A stretch of 64,000 nucleotides of DNA from Pocillopora damicornis (lineage: Eukaryota). Location: the NCBI RefSeq assembly GCF_003704095.1, contig NW_020846320.1, positions 1 through 64,000 on the forward strand. The letters run 5' to 3'. Of this stretch, positions 6,001-39,000 are shown piece by piece (within the stretch, counting starts at the first letter, position 1; each line of letters begins with the position of its first letter). The position numbers are program-made.

Positions 6001-9000
6001 CTGCTCTTGTTTGTCTCCTCTAATTCTAAATGGTTTCAATTTTTATCGCTTGTTTCGTTTATGGGTAATATCTGCTATGGATTAATTTTAAAACACAATC
6101 TCTTTAGGAATGCGTGATTCATTGTGAAGATGTTCGGCTTTTTGACGGCACCTTCACCAGCGTGTCTCAAATTAGTTTAAGTGCAAACAGAATTAAAGGT
6201 CTTACACTGAGTTGTTTCGGCGTGGCCACAATACACTATCGAGTATTTCCCAACATGGGAAGTCTTAAACTCTTTTTTCTTTCGAAACCCTTGACTTAAA
6301 AGGAATGGCCCAGTTTATGAATCTGTATAAAAAATTCAGCTTTAGAATTCGACATCATATTATTAGAGATAACCCCAGCCATCTCTAAAGTTTATATCTC
6401 ACGACCTTAACGTAAGAGATCAGTTAGAAAAAAAGATGATAAAAAAATTCTGCATTTTAAAAGATCGAAACGGATCTGGAGTTTGAAAAAGTTCGGGGCT
6501 ACTTTGTAACCACCTACTTCCAGTCTGGGTTCGAAAACACAGCCCGTCATCTTTGAACATTGAGATAAGCACATTGTGTTCTCTTTTGAGCTTAGTAATG
6601 ACTTTTGAGGATTGTCTCAACAGAAATGGTAAAACTGAAATTTCGCGACATCATGAACTCAAATGTATTTGAACGACTGTGAATATGTGAAAATCAAATA
6701 TTTGAAAGAGATATATATATATATATATCTCATTAAAAGAGTAATAAGTCCCCAGACATTTAATGTACGCTAAAGAGTTTCAATAATTTAATACCTGTTT
6801 ACAACTCTTAAGAAATATCGATAAAAACAGAAATAAGACCGCATAAATTAAAATGAAATAAATTATCAACGACCTACTTCGCATCTACCTCATGGCTTCA
6901 AAGAAACGTGCAATTTAAAAGTAGTAACTAACATATACATCTTGAAGAGCGAAATACGATGTGGAGAATGTTTATTAAAAATGCTACACCGTTATTTTTA
7001 AAAAAATTATGTACATTAATACGATGCAAGATTTTAGCGAAATAAAATATCCTTCATTTGACCTCATTTTGTACGCCTAAGTATGCTCTACAACGCTACA
7101 CACTGACGAGATGTAAAGATGGAACGATAGTTCCGCTACTATGCAAAAAAGAAAACAAACAGCACAAGGTAGCGTTAAGAATTATGTGGGGTGAGGATCC
7201 TAAGCAGTAAGGACATGCGTCTCCTTACGACATTTCTCCGTGAAGCTACCTACAGAAATTTGTCATTTGAAGAAAAAGTTCCTTCTTTTAATAGTTCTGT
7301 CGACAGACGTCTGTGCATGATGGCATGAGCTAAAACCCAATACACCGTAACATGCCGGAACACCGCGAAATTTAAAAAAAATAAAAGTAAAAAAAAGATT
7401 GATAAAAAGTAGTTTATACATACATTATATATATAAAAAGTCAATTTGTGTGTAGCTCGCGCTCTTCGTGCCTCAAGTCCACCATCGTGGTTTTCGCTAA
7501 CCAGTAACCCCGTTCCTAACATGGAAAATGGTGGGTTTACGTTCGTGTCGTTTGAAATTGCAATCCGCTGTCTCTAGTGGTAACCGAAAACCAGGGTGGC
7601 AGACTTAACTCAAAAAGTGCACGGGCTATACACAGATTGAGTTTTACTGTTTTTTATCATTTTTTCAAAATTGAAAAAAGTAAACTTTTTTTCAAATTTT
7701 ATGGTTATTTCATCTTTTTGAAATTCCGCGGAGTTCCCGCATGTTCCGGTTTTAGCACATATGGTGCATGGTTTAGGAGCAGTTATCAGCTATTTTTTGG
7801 ACTACGACAAAAGTGTTAACACAAAAAAAGCCTGTTCTGTGTATATCTGTATATCAGCCTATATACGCCTTGTTGATGCCTGTGCGAGTTTCCTTTTTCA
7901 GTCTCTTTTGGCTGTATTACAATACCCGCTTGACTTCTCCCAATGTTTAAAGCTCTTATCAAAACTATTTGTTTACTGTTATCAGACTAGTAGGTTTCAA
8001 CAATGACTTGTTCCTTAATAGCTTGTCTCATAGAGACTTAACCGTATATGATTCGTTTCTTGATGTCTTGCGCCTCAAAGACCTGTCCCTTGGAGACTCC
8101 TACCTTCATTCCTTGTCCTTTAACTTCTCCTTTGCTATGAACGCCTTTCTCCAGACCCTGGCTCTTTCATCATCTTTAGCAGCTGGCCCCCTTTTATGCC
8201 TGGATTATCAGTCTAAGTGCTCTTTTTCTATCTTCATAGGAACTGTAGTCACCACTTGGTTTTCAAACACAAATCTCTTGACTCTATCAAACAAAAAGAG
8301 AAAGATGAACAGAATAGCCAAGTACTGGATCCAAGCCATTTTGATGAGCTGCCAAAATCCTGGACGGTATCTTAAAAATAACGTTAAGGTGAACTCTGTT
8401 TGCAATTGAACAACTCCTGATGCGAAAATCTTCAAACACAATTCTAAGAAACAGTTGCAACACATCTCTTAAAACCTTGATAATGGTTGGAAAATATGCG
8501 AGGTGTAAATGTATCATTGAATATCATCCCATCCAAGGAAAGGAGATTGAAATACTCTCAGTCAGAGGGGTCTCAATAACTTTTTCCATAAGTGGCTGCC
8601 ACTGGTGTAATTGGCGGCCATGCCTTAAGGTGAAAATAACCAAGAGAGTCTCTTTGTAGGCTAAACAGATGCTGGTGAGACATCTTGCAGACTTACAGCT
8701 CATTGAAACCCCAGTTTGATTGTATCAAGCAATGAAAACTTAGATGTCAGCTCCAGTGGTGTACATGGGTTAACTTAAGAGCAAAACTTTACCTTTTCAA
8801 CAAAAGCTTGTGGCGGCCCTGAATAATATCCTAGTAATGATTGCTTGCAGTACATTAGCACAACCTTGATACACTTAAAATTTTTACTAAAAGATACATG
8901 ATTGTCTCCTCTGGGTAATAAACAGTTCCTTTAATAACAAATGGCTGCCCAGCTGCTCTACCAGTTGTCCACACAGGATGGAATGACACATATTCTGTGG

Positions 9001-36000: not shown

Positions 36001-39000
36001 ACCCTACAAATTTAACACCTAAAAAATTAAGTGTAAAATTGCAATGAAAAAAAGTAAAAATTTTAGGAAAAATTTAAGGAGCATATGCTGGGATTTTCAA
36101 AAAAGGCAGGTCTATCGCTGCCAGTAAAACCTCATGGCCTGTGAGCAAGCTCTCGTGTATGGGATTTGCCTCACGGCTACTTTCCGGGCAAAGCCGCCTA
36201 AAACACCATCGGAAGCCCGTTATGGAAAAGCAACTGGGACCCTTTTATGTTCTTAAAGGTCAAGCTCAACTCAAGCCAGGCTGCGTTTCTCTTGCGCGAG
36301 AATCGAGAGAAAGCAAAAGTTAAGAGGTGTGAGGATTATTTCACTTGGCGATATTTAAAGGCCCTCTGCATGGATGTAATATTTAACTTCAAGTGAAACT
36401 TTAACCTCGGTCAAGGGTGATGAAATAATGAGGCAACAACTTATTTATACGGAAGTTGAGATTTTTTCTGAGAATGGATTGCATCAGAAAAATGACAAAT
36501 CGTTTATGGACTACTTTAAAATAAATAAAATAATTTAGTTTTCAGAAAGGAATTGAAGAAGCAAATATATCAAATGTACAGTAATGTAGGCCTACACAAT
36601 CAATGGAAAAAAATAATTAGGTTATGAATGAAAAAGCGAAAGTAACTTCCTCTTACGTTTGGATCCAATGACTCTTCGTCTAATTCATCTTTCTTCTTGT
36701 TCTCAGCTGCTTGAGAGCTAGGCGCCTTTAAAACAAAGAAAGGTGGAATGGGTCGAATGTAACCACGTGTTTCCGTGACTAAATCGCTTGAATCCAAAAT
36801 ATAGTCGGAGCCTTACCTCCGCTTGTTTCGCCTCCTTCTCCTTAGCTTTCTTCTCTGCTTTGAGCCTTCTCTTTAGCTCGCTGTTATCAGAGATAATTAT
36901 TAAACATTCAGTAAAAGTTTGGAGGTCGAGTGATTTAAATTTATACGAGAAATATAACATACTTCTTGCTAATGTTTCCGTCGCCACCGGCATCCGCCAT
37001 GCTAGAGCACCTAACTGAACCCTCGTGTGTTCTGAATAGTGGACTCTGGTTGGTCCATAAGGGCTTGAGCCTCCAAAGCGCACGCGCAGTCCGTCCAAAA
37101 ATTACCCGCGAAAACATGCTAAAGATTCCGCGAAAATGATCAAGACAAATAAATTTTCTTTCATTCGGCTGACCTCCATAGCCACTTGATCGATTCCTTG
37201 CGCATTAAATGCTTGAAATTAAACTTCAGTATGGAAATTCAGGCCGAATAGTGGTCTCTTTCCTCGCAAAACCACCAGTGCCACACGTACTCGCATATTA
37301 CGATCCTCTGTCCTCCTTTGAACTCGATTTCTCCCGATATTCGTACCCAGCTCTCCTCTGGAATATTCAAAAAGGGACGGGAGAGTGGGGAACTTGGTTG
37401 CGCAAGGGTTCAGCGTGTGCCGTAAGAATAGCTCCATTATGTTTTGCTTTATTTGTCTATTTATCAATTGTTTCGTCTATATATTTTTGATGTTTTGAGC
37501 TGTGGGTGCTGGACAGAGAAATAGAGGAAATGCAAAATTTGTTTCCTAAACCCCTGCAGGTCTCTAGAATCCCAAGTCTTGAATCAATTCTTTTTTCAGT
37601 CAACTATGACCAGGGTCATCTCCAATAATCTTTGTATTACACCAGCTCCAGGGTGAAATTCCTGTGACAAATTATTCACAGAGACCAACAGCATCACACA
37701 GGCCACCCAATCTATGAAGACAACTAGGTATGAGTCAGCACCATACTCCCTGATTAAAAACCTCTCAGGCATTTCATAGGGAAGGTGGGGAGGAGGGTAT
37801 CTAACAAATCATGTCAAAAATGTTGATTTCCACAAGTCAGATATCGACACTGAAATGATCACTCAGTAACAGCTGGGAAAGAAAAAACCGAAAAAACAGT
37901 TGTTAATAATGAGCAGTCAATTTTGAATCAACAGGGAGGGTCAAGTCACCCCTAAAACAATTTTTTAGAAAGACAATTTTCCACCAGGCAGATTTTTCAG
38001 TTCTAAATTTTATTGTGCCACTTGGCATATGTAGCTAACTAACAGTAAATATAGTGTCTAGTGTTCAAGAAAATAGTCTCTTGAATTTGCATTTAGAGTA
38101 AACAATGTAATATTACCCAATTTCTATAAAAATTTAAGGATATAAATATATTTATTGTATAAATAAAAATTGATGGTGCACATAGAGATAACTTGCATTT
38201 TAAAACAATTTTCATTATCTTAAATGAGTTCTTTCCTGTTTTCCAAACTTATAAACTTGCACAAGTATGGCAATGTCTATACATATCTGAAGCAAACCAC
38301 AAATCCAAAACTGAACTGGTGCAACCTTTACAAGGAAATAACAAGTTTTGAATATATCTCCTGATAGCCACATTACAACCATCTTTACACTGCAAACAGA
38401 AAAAAATAAATGTCATGCTTCAGTTTTTCAATTTGCTGCTGGTTAAAAGAAGCTTTGTTTAACCGTTTATAGCCTAACATTAGCATGTATCTTCTCCATA
38501 TGGCTAACTATACATATCCCAAGGTACTGTCAAGGAGAATTTGTATAACAATAAAGAGTGTCTTTAGTTAGTGATCATTTCCTCTATTCTCGTGACCTCT
38601 ATGTGTGATTCAGGAGTGCTATTGTGAGGAGAAATTACATGTAGTCACTCCAAGGGGTCAAAGGATTAGAGCAGAGGATTCACCAAGCAACCCCTGTGGT
38701 ATTTCAGATGCAATAGTACAAGATCTCCAAATAAAAGGGTTCCCAATTCTTTACTGAAACACTTGGTACAACCAGCAAAGGGAAGGGAGGGGTAGAATAT
38801 GTTCAGATGACTGGATTAAAATTATGCATCGTGTGACTTATGTGACAGAAAAAAGTGAAGAACAAAGTTCCTGTATTGAAGAGTAAAACAAATAGCACAA
38901 GCTGGGATGGAAAAAGCTGCTCCTATGCGATGCAAAATGCATGAACTGAGGGATACAGAAAGAGAGAGCTGCAGTCTTATCATAAAATACCTTTTCACTA

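What the first reader, a model, noticed from the sequence alone, without database searches (positions are those of the whole stretch)
8208..37000. Ancient microsynteny: TMEM231-ADAT1-GABARAPL2-KARS mirrors the human 16q23.1 block
Seen: order TMEM231(-), ADAT1(+), GABARAPL2(-), [U4, OTUD6B], KARS(-). Recalled: the human order is TMEM231(-), GABARAPL2(+), ADAT1(-), KARS1(-). The two arrangements differ by one inversion of the convergent ADAT1/GABARAPL2 pair plus the U4-OTUD6B segment. If this is a cnidarian, four functionally unrelated genes have stayed adjacent since the cnidarian-bilaterian split. That includes two tRNA-acting enzymes and suggests a shared regulatory constraint.
[Added by the scan's program, not by the reader: the finding's places include an assembly gap (unread letters, written N; its length is only estimated) at 23246 to 23345, 28626 to 28676, 35540 to 35549. 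Whether the letters on both sides are continuous or in frame is not known: test that first.]
Basis: partly seen in the sequence, partly recalled or inferred. Interest (0 to 1): 0.7.

Follow-up and report, generated by a model that had tools for sequence, protein, structure and literature searches.

The report
Coral-to-vertebrate conserved four-gene neighbourhood
A stony-coral genome keeps four unrelated everyday genes (TMEM231, ADAT1, GABARAPL2, KARS) side by side much as birds and mammals do, which is a real example of an already familiar kind of ancient gene-order conservation.

Summary
Window 8208-~37000 carries TMEM231(-), ADAT1(+), GABARAPL2(-), a U4 snRNA gene(+), OTUD6B(+) and KARS(-), in that order and on those strands. 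The source is a scleractinian coral. A Pocillopora damicornis OTUD6B-like model matches the window letter for letter, intronic read-through included.

Two of the three gaps lie in KARS introns with no residues missing. The gap at 23246-23345 hides about 51 residues of OTUD6B, but OTUD6B exons on both sides support the scaffold join.

Published chicken coordinates give KARS-ADAT1-GABARAPL2-TMEM231 as immediate neighbours. Coral and vertebrate orders therefore differ by flipping the ADAT1/GABARAPL2 pair and by the U4-OTUD6B insert. Vertebrate strands are recalled, not checked. Chance is excluded, with 0.005 or fewer such blocks expected.

The "shared regulatory constraint" reading is not shown. 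TMEM231's head-to-head partner differs between the lineages, and ADAT1 and KARS are not adjacent in the coral. Only the tail-to-tail ADAT1/GABARAPL2 junction is kept.

I read it as an ancestral block preserved by extreme compaction. It is a further member of a catalogued class of microsyntenic blocks. Published supplementary lists could not be checked.

The parts
8208..11464 (-). TMEM231 orthologue. Six detected coding ORF segments at about 8241-8402 (plus stop 8208-8210), 8894-9016, 9966-10133, 10696-10878, 11033-11218 and 11324-11464.
   Evidence: PF10149 hits of 25.8-69.7 bits, each above the 23.2 cutoff, collinear, covering profile 1-300 of 301 apart from positions 201-217. ATG at 11464, stop at 8208-8210.
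11465..11909 (.). Divergent (head-to-head) spacer between the TMEM231 and ADAT1 start codons, 445 bp. Inferred to be a bidirectional promoter.
   Evidence: CpG observed/expected is 1.2 here against 0.62 for the window. Promoter function is inferred, not shown.
11910..16813 (+). ADAT1 orthologue. Eight coding segments: 11910-12056, 12558-12629, 13670-13726, 13916-14047, 14266-15126, 15707-15805, 15916-16047, 16670-16810, plus the stop.
   Evidence: tblastn of Stylophora, Nematostella and amphioxus ADAT1. PF02137 on 2 ORFs; best named hits are ADAT1; the HAE, PC and SCSDK zinc-site motifs are visible in the ORF translations (motif names recalled).
16814..17438 (.). Convergent (tail-to-tail) spacer between the ADAT1 and GABARAPL2 stop codons, 625 bp. 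This is the only junction kept, with its orientation, in both coral and vertebrates.
   Evidence: poly(A)-signal hexamers on + at 16817, 17237, 17354 and on - at 17312, 16958. The 3' UTRs may therefore overlap, which is an inference.
17439..19571 (-). GABARAPL2 orthologue. Five coding segments: 19539-19571, about 19409-19471, 19262-19336, 18958-19056, and 17442 to about 17510, plus the stop at 17439-17441.
   Evidence: covers residues 1-117 of Montipora GABARAPL2; closest PDB paralogue is GABARAPL2. PF02991 on 3 ORFs.
21141..21279 (+). U4 spliceosomal snRNA gene, 161 bp upstream of the OTUD6B start codon.
   Evidence: RF00015, 127 bits (gathering 46), model 1-138 of 138, E 1.4e-28.
21441..27163 (+). 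OTUD6B orthologue, interrupted by the assembly gap. Segments: 21441-21515, 21829 to about 21975, 22816-22929, [missing], 23650-23694, 24317 to about 24427, 24935 to about 25003, 26123-26233, 27089-27160, plus the stop.
   Evidence: The Pfam OTU hits on 2 ORFs are below the cutoff (18.9 against 23.3 bits).
23246..23345 (.). Assembly gap that hides at least one OTUD6B coding exon (residues 112-162 of relative P0245). The catalytic-cysteine stretch lies just before the next exon found.
   Evidence: no match for those residues anywhere in the window. OTUD6B exons lie on both sides in the same order and on the same strand. The gap was not filled.
28133..36882 (-). KARS (lysyl-tRNA synthetase) orthologue. 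Segments: 28136-28228 plus stop 28133-28135, 28766-28909, 30060-30188, 30633-30722, 31371-31463, within ORF 31579-31833, 32100-32207, 32566-32628, 33230-33355, 33868-33996, 34393-34530, about 34763-34940, 35681-35845, 36814-36882. The start codon is not fixed; there are Met codons at 36960 and 36993 in the same ORF.
   Evidence: PF00152 on 5 ORFs and PF01336 on 1; last exon; tblastn. PDB lysine-tRNA ligase chains..
28626..28676 (.). Assembly gap inside the last KARS intron.
   Evidence: flanking exons match chain 5hgq_A at 454-500 and 501-522.
35540..35549 (.). Assembly gap inside a KARS intron.
   Evidence: flanking exons match chain 4dpg_A at 7 to about 61 and from 61 on, without a break.

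Best explanation
This is a true ancestral gene neighbourhood. [quoted passage not shown] They remain so in a pocilloporid coral and in amniotes.

Since that ancestor, one lineage inverted the convergent ADAT1/GABARAPL2 pair. In addition, a U4-OTUD6B segment was gained in the coral line or lost in the vertebrate line.

I think the block survived mainly because it is so tightly packed. In the coral the spacers are 445 bp, 625 bp, 1.9 kb (holding the U4 gene) and 969 bp. In chicken the annotated gene limits abut or overlap. Almost any breakpoint would therefore cut a promoter or a 3' end of a broadly needed gene. The only places where a rearrangement is tolerated are the promoter spacers at the ends of the convergent pair, and that is where the single inversion falls.

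The constraint is therefore structural. It comes from interleaved promoters and gene ends, not from a functional partnership of the four products or a promoter shared by fixed partners.

Shown here: gene content, order, strands, spacer sizes, coral origin and non-chance. Inferred: the ancestral state, the reason for retention, promoter function and UTR overlap.
For: - **Gene identities and anatomy:**
- **Coral origin:**
- **Chicken chr11 coordinates:** KARS 20108842-20121014, ADAT1 20121004-20145653, GABARAPL2 20146831-20154681, TMEM231 20154497-20159550. All four sit in 50.7 kb with limits overlapping by 10 bp and 184 bp (passage of PMC6339939).
- **Cattle:** a chr18 window lists TMEM231, KARS1, ADAT1, GABARAPL2 (passage of PMC12573082).
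- **Human:** a chr16 run of CHST5, TMEM231, GABARAPL2, ADAT1 (passage of PMC4485866).
- **Chance expectation:** 0.005 or fewer blocks.
- **Spacer sizes:**. The TMEM231-ADAT1 spacer has CpG o/e 1.2 against 0.62 for the window.
- **Flanks:** the coral flanks are TRAF, a PQ-loop gene, RABGGTA and a GPCR. They do not match my recalled vertebrate flanks CHST5/6 and TERF2IP, so conservation stops at the four genes.
- **Other linkage:** OTUD6B is not in the vertebrate block (by recall, human OTUD6B is on 8q21). In Desmophyllum pertusum it is listed on a contig of the same length (5,155,781 bp) as that species' ADAT1. This is weak linkage evidence only.
Against: - No third lineage could be examined, so the ancestral order, the direction of the inversion and the number of independent losses are unknown.
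- Vertebrate strands are recalled, not read from a call.
- No expression or chromatin data were available, so co-regulation is not excluded.
- A compaction argument predicts that many other compact runs should also survive. Yet Zimmermann et al. 2023 report very few long blocks for cnidarians (passages of PMC10719294). This block may therefore need more than compaction.
- Orthology rests on exon-level best hits and on a proxy protein for GABARAPL2, not on trees.
Confidence: 0.6

Rival explanations
1. Co-regulation constraint. The genes share cis-regulatory elements such as bidirectional promoters or enhancers. They may be linked to a common role in tRNA and amino-acid homeostasis, and breaking the block would disturb coordinated expression.
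For: - TMEM231 and ADAT1 are head-to-head, 445 bp apart, across a CpG-rich spacer.
- GABARAPL2 and OTUD6B are head-to-head, 1.9 kb apart.
- Irimia et al. 2012 found conserved pairs enriched for 5'-5' orientation, short spacers and co-expression (abstract and passages of PMC3514665).
- By recall, tRNA synthetase genes and Gabarapl2 respond to the ATF4 starvation pathway in mammals.
Against: - The head-to-head partner of TMEM231 is ADAT1 in the coral but GABARAPL2 in vertebrates (recalled strands), so no specific shared promoter is conserved.
- ADAT1 and KARS are 11.3 kb apart on opposite strands in the coral, with GABARAPL2, U4 and OTUD6B between them.
- An unrelated gene and an snRNA gene are tolerated inside the block.
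- The only junction kept with its orientation is tail-to-tail, which shares no promoter.
- A crude ATF4/CARE-like motif count shows no enrichment: 15 found against 18.25 expected, and 80 of 100 shuffles reach 15.
Confidence: 0.25
2. Pure neutral survival. The block is simply one of the few runs that escaped rearrangement by luck in two slowly rearranging lineages, with no constraint at all.
For: - Catalogues report 162 blocks of three or more genes gained at the cnidarian-bilaterian (planulozoan) node, on top of older ones such as the 34 at the metazoan node. Shuffled genomes give 17-25 at the planulozoan node (passage of PMC8851819). Some long survivors are therefore expected.
- Macrosynteny is well kept in anthozoans (abstract of PMC10719294).
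Against: - Cnidarian microsynteny decays fast. No collinear block of four or more genes spans the anthozoan-medusozoan split, and only 7 blocks do so when up to 5 intervening genes are allowed (passage of PMC10719294).
- The block is compact in both lineages, which is not expected of a random survivor in a vertebrate genome.
Confidence: 0.12
3. Artefact: vertebrate contamination, a chimeric scaffold across the gaps, or a chance juxtaposition of unrelated paralogues.
For: Three assembly gaps lie in the region. The link between the left half (TMEM231 to the OTUD6B 5' part) and the right half (OTUD6B 3' part to KARS) crosses the gap at 23246-23345.
Against: - Best hits are coral proteins: 74% to Stylophora ADAT1 against 35-60% local identity to vertebrates, and letter-for-letter identity to a Pocillopora OTUD6B-like model.
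- Introns are short and GC is about 0.36 throughout.
- Each gap is flanked by exons of one gene in the right order and on the right strand.
- Chance expectation is 0.005 or less.
Confidence: 0.03

Closest known systems
Planulozoan or metazoan microsyntenic blocks as catalogued by Simakov et al. 2013 and Robert et al. 2022 (PMC8851819). [quoted passage not shown]
   Same: The block holds four non-paralogous orthologues. There is one intervening protein gene in the coral and none in chicken. It is shared across the cnidarian-bilaterian split and local order is allowed to differ.
   Different: I could not see whether this block is in their lists, because supplements are closed. None of the four gene names occurs in the main text of PMC8851819 or PMC3514665. 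Only one cnidarian and amniotes were compared here, whereas those pipelines require several species.
Conserved ancient microsyntenic pairs (CAMPs) kept by co-regulation, for example HSPD1-HSPE1 with a shared bidirectional promoter (Irimia et al. 2012, PMC3514665).
   Same: The genes are housekeeping-type, the spacers are very short, and head-to-head pairs occur inside the block.
   Different: In the HSPD1-HSPE1 type, the same two genes keep the same 5'-5' arrangement. Here the 5'-5' partners differ between coral and vertebrates, and the conserved junction is 3'-3'.
Genomic regulatory blocks (a developmental regulator plus bystander genes that carry its enhancers).
   Same: Unrelated genes are held together over long times.
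   Different: Pfam found no developmental transcription factor or signalling gene in or beside the block. Introns and spacers are small, leaving little room for enhancers of another gene.

Membership tests
Ancient microsyntenic block (Robert et al. 2022 definition, passage) | At least three orthologous, non-paralogous genes | tested here: met
   Four genes from four different Pfam families. Orthology is supported at exon level. No gene trees were made.
Ancient microsyntenic block (Robert et al. 2022 definition) | Each member separated by at most five intervening genes in each genome | tested here: met
   Coral: OTUD6B and a U4 gene lie between GABARAPL2 and KARS, and nothing else was detected. 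Chicken: abutting coordinates.
Ancient microsyntenic block (Robert et al. 2022 definition) | Present in several species on both sides of the node, so that it can be placed at the cnidarian-bilaterian ancestor | tested here: inconclusive
   - One coral (this window) against chicken, cattle and human from paper passages.
- No eukaryotic genome collection was on hand.
- Same-length contigs for ADAT1 plus OTUD6B in Desmophyllum and for ADAT1 plus an Atg8-like protein in Xenia show only loose linkage.
Co-regulated CAMP (Irimia et al. 2012) | Conserved 5'-5' orientation of the same two genes | tested here: not met
   The coral pair is TMEM231/ADAT1. The vertebrate pair is TMEM231/GABARAPL2, with order and strands recalled.
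Co-regulated CAMP (Irimia et al. 2012) | Correlated expression of the linked genes | not testable with these tools
   No expression data were available.
Genomic regulatory block | A developmental regulator gene whose enhancers lie in neighbouring bystander genes | tested here: not met
   No such gene was found among the 638 ORFs scanned.
TMEM231 (PF10149) | Match to the family profile over its length | tested here: met
   Six collinear ORFs, each above the cutoff, cover profile 1-300 of 301. Positions 201-217 were not matched by any ORF of 40 aa or more.
ADAT1 (tRNA-specific adenosine deaminase 1), as against ADAR/ADAD | An A_deamin domain with the zinc-site motifs, no dsRNA-binding domains, and best hits that are ADAT1 | tested here: met
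   - PF02137 on 2 ORFs.
- Among the 120 hits listed of 1417, every functional name is ADAT1 and none is ADAR.
- Exons match ADAT1 of Nematostella from residue 1.
- No dsrm hit on any ORF.
GABARAPL2 subfamily of ATG8 | Closer to GABARAPL2 than to GABARAP, GABARAPL1 or LC3 | tested here: met
   - Middle exon: GABARAPL2 46 bits, GABARAPL1 34, GABARAP 32.
- Last exon: GABARAPL2 47.7 bits against 39-43.7.
- Yeast Atg8 scores about as high as GABARAPL2 on both exons.
- The full-length Montipora proxy, about 94% identical over exon 4 and matched over all five exons, scores 195 bits to GABARAPL2, 168 to Atg8a, 161 to GABARAP and 157 to GABARAPL1.
- No tree was made.
Class II lysyl-tRNA synthetase (KARS) | An OB anticodon-binding domain plus a class II core, with best hits that are lysine-tRNA ligases | tested here: met
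   PF01336 on 1 ORF and PF00152 on 5 ORFs. The best PDB chains for four exons are named lysine-tRNA ligase or lysyl-tRNA synthetase, and all but two weak hits (an unrelated designer repeat protein) carry such a name.
OTUD6B | An OTU domain with the catalytic cysteine, and best hits that are OTUD6B | tested here: inconclusive
   The functional names given are OTUD6B or OTUD6B-like, for 3 of the 11 hits. The cysteine-bearing part falls in the gap. Pfam OTU hits are below the cutoff.
U4 snRNA (RF00015) | Score above the Rfam gathering threshold over the full model | tested here: met
   127 bits against 46, model 1-138 of 138.

The most novel reading that the evidence does not exclude
The block is actively held together by shared gene ends rather than by luck. 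Two features may themselves be more than 600 million years old and selectively maintained. One is a convergent ADAT1/GABARAPL2 pair whose 3' ends overlap or share termination signals. The other is a rule that each end of that pair must face another gene's promoter, so that TMEM231 always keeps a head-to-head partner whichever way the pair points. If so, this would be one of the very few non-developmental blocks of four genes kept from corals to humans. It would also be a clean natural experiment, since one inversion swapped the promoter partners, for asking what bidirectional promoters and convergent terminators actually constrain.
Probability: 0.25. Interest if true: 0.55.

Novelty: new member of a known kind. 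Interest (0 to 1): 0.35.

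Why it matters
Ancient microsynteny is well established, with about 600 conserved pairs in Irimia et al. 2012 and 162 blocks at the planulozoan node in Robert et al. 2022. One more block does not change the picture.

Its value is as a compact, well-defined case. It holds four unrelated, mostly housekeeping genes in under 30 kb in a coral and about 51 kb in chicken. The two arrangements differ by a single inversion that exchanges promoter partners. 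Long blocks are reported to be rare in cnidarians (Zimmermann et al. 2023), so this is a convenient locus for testing whether compaction, shared promoters or overlapping 3' ends preserve gene order.

The work also flags a practical annotation problem. The public OTUD6B-like model for Pocillopora damicornis reads through intron sequence around an assembly gap and lacks the catalytic-cysteine region.

Tried and rejected
- I sent stop-to-stop ORFs to the same tool instead.
- a pattern search for the last KARS exon found nothing because my pattern was too narrow. Reading the three frames below the gap found it.
- the exhaustive representative search with a KARS exon returned 430 hits, mostly short fragments. 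Only one long protein (P0289, 560 aa) was usable for mapping, and its own model is imperfect between residues 314 and 450.
- the starvation-response (CARE-like) motif TGATGNAA gave 15 matches against 18.25 expected, with no enrichment. The idea of an ATF4-type shared regulon gained no support, although this is a weak test.
- the sigma-70 and terminator scan around U4 is a bacterial model and says nothing here.
- **No extension of the block:** no TERF2IP-like or CHST-like gene was detected beside the block by Pfam. My recollection of those vertebrate flanks therefore finds no counterpart here.
- **Not attempted:** structure prediction, complex prediction and atlas searches. Every gene has a clear family, and no binding claim is made.

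Full report
**Scope and limits.** The genes are spliced, so I searched exon by exon. Queries were stop-to-stop ORFs sent as window references, or local tblastn of fetched relatives against the window. I left out the step of joining exons into protein models. Orthology therefore rests on exon-level evidence and on one proxy protein, and no gene trees were made. Gene order in other animals could only be taken from paper texts.

**What is in the window.** The window has GC of about 0.36 and twelve runs of N. All 638 ORFs of at least 40 aa were scanned against Pfam in five calls. A further 54 of the 692 found had been dropped beforehand for more than 30% X.

- **TMEM231:** on the minus strand, six collinear ORFs between 8211 and 11497 each pass the TM231 cutoff. 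They cover profile positions 1-300 of 301, apart from positions 201-217. The stop is at 8208-8210 and the start codon at 11464.
- **ADAT1:** on the plus strand, eight segments from 11910 to 16807 match ADAT1 of Stylophora, Nematostella and amphioxus. Two ORFs hit the A_deamin profile.
- **GABARAPL2:** on the minus strand, five segments from 19571 down to 17442 cover residues 1-117 of Montipora GABARAPL2.
- **U4:** a full-length U4 snRNA gene lies at 21141-21279 on the plus strand (127 bits, gathering 46).
- **OTUD6B:** it starts 161 bp downstream of U4, at 21441, and ends at 27163.
- **KARS:** it lies on the minus strand from its stop at 28133-28135 up to at least 36882. Its start codon is not fixed.

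The flanks are a TRAF gene (minus, window start to about 5199), a PQ-loop gene (minus, 38218-40865), RABGGTA (plus, 42478 to about 51545) and an intronless rhodopsin-type receptor (55303-56331).

**The gaps, tested first.**
- **28626-28676:** the exon above it (28766-28909) matches lysine-tRNA ligase chain 5hgq_A at residues 454-500. The last exon below it (28136-28228) matches residues 501-522. The gap is in an intron and no residue is missing.
- **35540-35549:** the exon at 35681-35845 aligns to chain 4dpg_A from residue 7, reaching about residue 61 at its last codon. The next exon starts at residue 61. This gap is also intronic.
- **23246-23345:** a 294-residue relative (P0245) matches the window at residues 1-111 before the gap and 163-294 after it. 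Residues 112-162 match nowhere. At least one OTUD6B exon is therefore hidden, and it includes the stretch just before the catalytic-site helix. I did not fill it.

In all three cases exons of one gene flank the gap in the right order and on the right strand. This supports the scaffold joins, including the one that links the left and right halves of the block.

**Source organism.**
- The large ADAT1 exon is 74% identical to Stylophora pistillata ADAT1, 55% to Desmophyllum, 48% to Montipora and 38% to Nematostella. It shows 35-60% local identity to vertebrates.
- The NCBI model "deubiquitinase OTUD6B-like [Pocillopora damicornis]" (P0242) is identical to the window. The identity extends over two stretches that are intron read-through around the gap.
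- The window is therefore from Pocillopora damicornis or a very close relative, a scleractinian cnidarian.

**Orthology.**
- **TMEM231:** it is the only family hit, and it is hit along its whole length apart from positions 201-217.
- **ADAT1:** among the 120 hits listed of 1417, every functional name is ADAT1 and none is ADAR.
- **GABARAPL2:** two exons score 8-14 bits higher to GABARAPL2 than to most GABARAP or GABARAPL1 chains (one GABARAP chain is only 4 bits lower on the last exon). Yeast Atg8 scores about as high as GABARAPL2. The full-length Montipora protein serves as a proxy. It scores 195 bits to GABARAPL2, 168 to Atg8a, 161 to GABARAP and 157 to GABARAPL1. NCBI-named best hits of the exon are GABARAPL2 or Atg8-like from cnidarians, echinoderms, a sponge and spiralians.
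- **KARS:** in each of the four exon searches the best chains are named lysine-tRNA ligase or lysyl-tRNA synthetase.
- **OTUD6B:** 3 of the 11 hits carry a functional name, OTUD6B or OTUD6B-like.

**Comparison with vertebrates.**
- A chicken paper gives chr11 coordinates: KARS 20108842-20121014, ADAT1 20121004-20145653, GABARAPL2 20146831-20154681, TMEM231 20154497-20159550 and CHST6 from 20160472 (passage of PMC6339939).
- The four genes are thus immediate neighbours in 50.7 kb, with annotated limits that overlap by 10 and 184 bp.
- A cattle paper lists the same genes in one chr18 window (passage of PMC12573082).
- A human study speaks of chromosome-16 SNPs spanning CHST5, TMEM231, GABARAPL2 and ADAT1 (passage of PMC4485866).
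- The vertebrate order is T-G-A-K and the coral order is T-A-G-[U4, OTUD6B]-K.
- With the strands I recall for human (TMEM231 -, GABARAPL2 +, ADAT1 -, KARS1 -), one inversion of the convergent pair converts one order into the other. I found no paper passage that states the strands (one search found none).

**More than chance?** Take four genes that are consecutive in one genome. The expected number of such runs falling within six consecutive slots of a randomly ordered genome is 6e-7 for 20,000 genes. It is 0.005 even if all four are confined to one 1,000-gene chromosome. The block is inherited, not accidental.

**How it most likely works.**
- In the coral the spacers are 445 bp (TMEM231/ADAT1 start codons, CpG o/e 1.2 against 0.62 window-wide) and 625 bp (ADAT1/GABARAPL2 stop codons, CpG o/e 0.24).
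- They are also 1.9 kb (GABARAPL2/OTUD6B start codons, holding U4) and 969 bp (OTUD6B/KARS stop codons).
- Poly(A) hexamers on both strands of the 625-bp spacer are placed so that the two 3' UTRs could overlap. This is an inference.
- The only junction kept with its orientation in both lineages is the tail-to-tail ADAT1/GABARAPL2 junction.
- TMEM231 is head-to-head with a different partner in each lineage. ADAT1 and KARS are adjacent in chicken but 11.3 kb apart on opposite strands in the coral.
- This pattern speaks against a promoter shared by fixed partners, and against a link through tRNA function.
- It fits a structural constraint. Promoters and gene ends are so interleaved that few breakpoints are harmless, and the one inversion seen uses the two promoter spacers.
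- I put this at 0.6, a true co-regulation constraint at 0.25, plain luck at 0.12 and artefact at 0.03.
- A crude count of a starvation-response motif showed no enrichment.

**What is known.**
- Irimia et al. 2012 reported nearly 600 conserved pairs. They attributed many to co-regulation or to regulatory blocks (abstract and passages).
- Robert et al. 2022 define a block as three or more orthologues with at most five intervening genes. They infer 162 blocks at the cnidarian-bilaterian node, against 17-25 in shuffled genomes (passage).
- Zimmermann et al. 2023 find no collinear block of four or more genes across the anthozoan-medusozoan split, and 14 between amphioxus and chicken (passage).
- The present block meets the Robert definition and is at the long end for a cnidarian.
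- None of the four gene names occurs in the main texts of Irimia 2012 or Robert 2022.
- No paper in the library holds "microsynten" together with GABARAPL2, TMEM231 or ADAT1 (0 of 13 papers holding at least two of the four terms). Searches gave the same result.
- The block lists are in supplements that I could not open, so it may already be listed.

**Verdict.** It is a new member of a known kind, of moderate interest.

Noticed in passing
window 21141-21441: The U4 snRNA gene ends only 161 bp before the OTUD6B start codon. It lies in the divergent spacer between GABARAPL2 and OTUD6B. A TATA-like run sits about 25-32 bp upstream of the U4 5' end. Whether U4 and OTUD6B share promoter elements is open.
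   Followed up: partly
window 22930-23694 (around gap 23246-23345): The public Pocillopora damicornis OTUD6B-like model (P0242, 272 aa) contains two stretches that are identical to the window but have no match in full-length relatives. It lacks residues 112-162 of the 294-aa form. It looks like a gene model forced across the assembly gap.
   Followed up: yes
window 11465-11909 and 16814-17438: CpG observed/expected is 1.2 in the TMEM231/ADAT1 promoter spacer and 0.24 in the ADAT1/GABARAPL2 3' spacer, against 0.62 for the window. This contrast would be expected if gene ends are methylated and promoters are not.
   Followed up: no
window 2-5199: A TRAF-type gene on the minus strand has RING, TRAF zinc-finger and MATH domains and runs off the window start. 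It is the left neighbour of TMEM231 and is not part of the recalled vertebrate block.
   Followed up: partly
window 38218-40865 and 42478-51545: A PQ-loop membrane protein gene lies on the minus strand. A Rab geranylgeranyltransferase alpha gene lies on the plus strand, with PPTA repeats, a weak insert-domain hit and LRRs, and is interrupted by gap 48869-49093. They are head-to-head about 1.6 kb apart.
   Followed up: no
window 55303-56331: An intronless 343-aa ORF matches the rhodopsin-family 7TM profile over its full length (E 1.5e-17).
   Followed up: no
window 57395-63671: The last 7 kb is broken by nine gaps. The low GC values there reflect the N runs, not composition.
   Followed up: no
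hits: ADAT1 and OTUD6B of Desmophyllum pertusum are both listed with a longest contig of 5,155,781 bp. ADAT1-like and Atg8-like proteins of Xenia sp. are both listed with 14,832,246 bp. One unnamed record pair shares 1,692,699 bp. This is consistent with linkage in other anthozoans, but the distance is unknown.
   Followed up: partly
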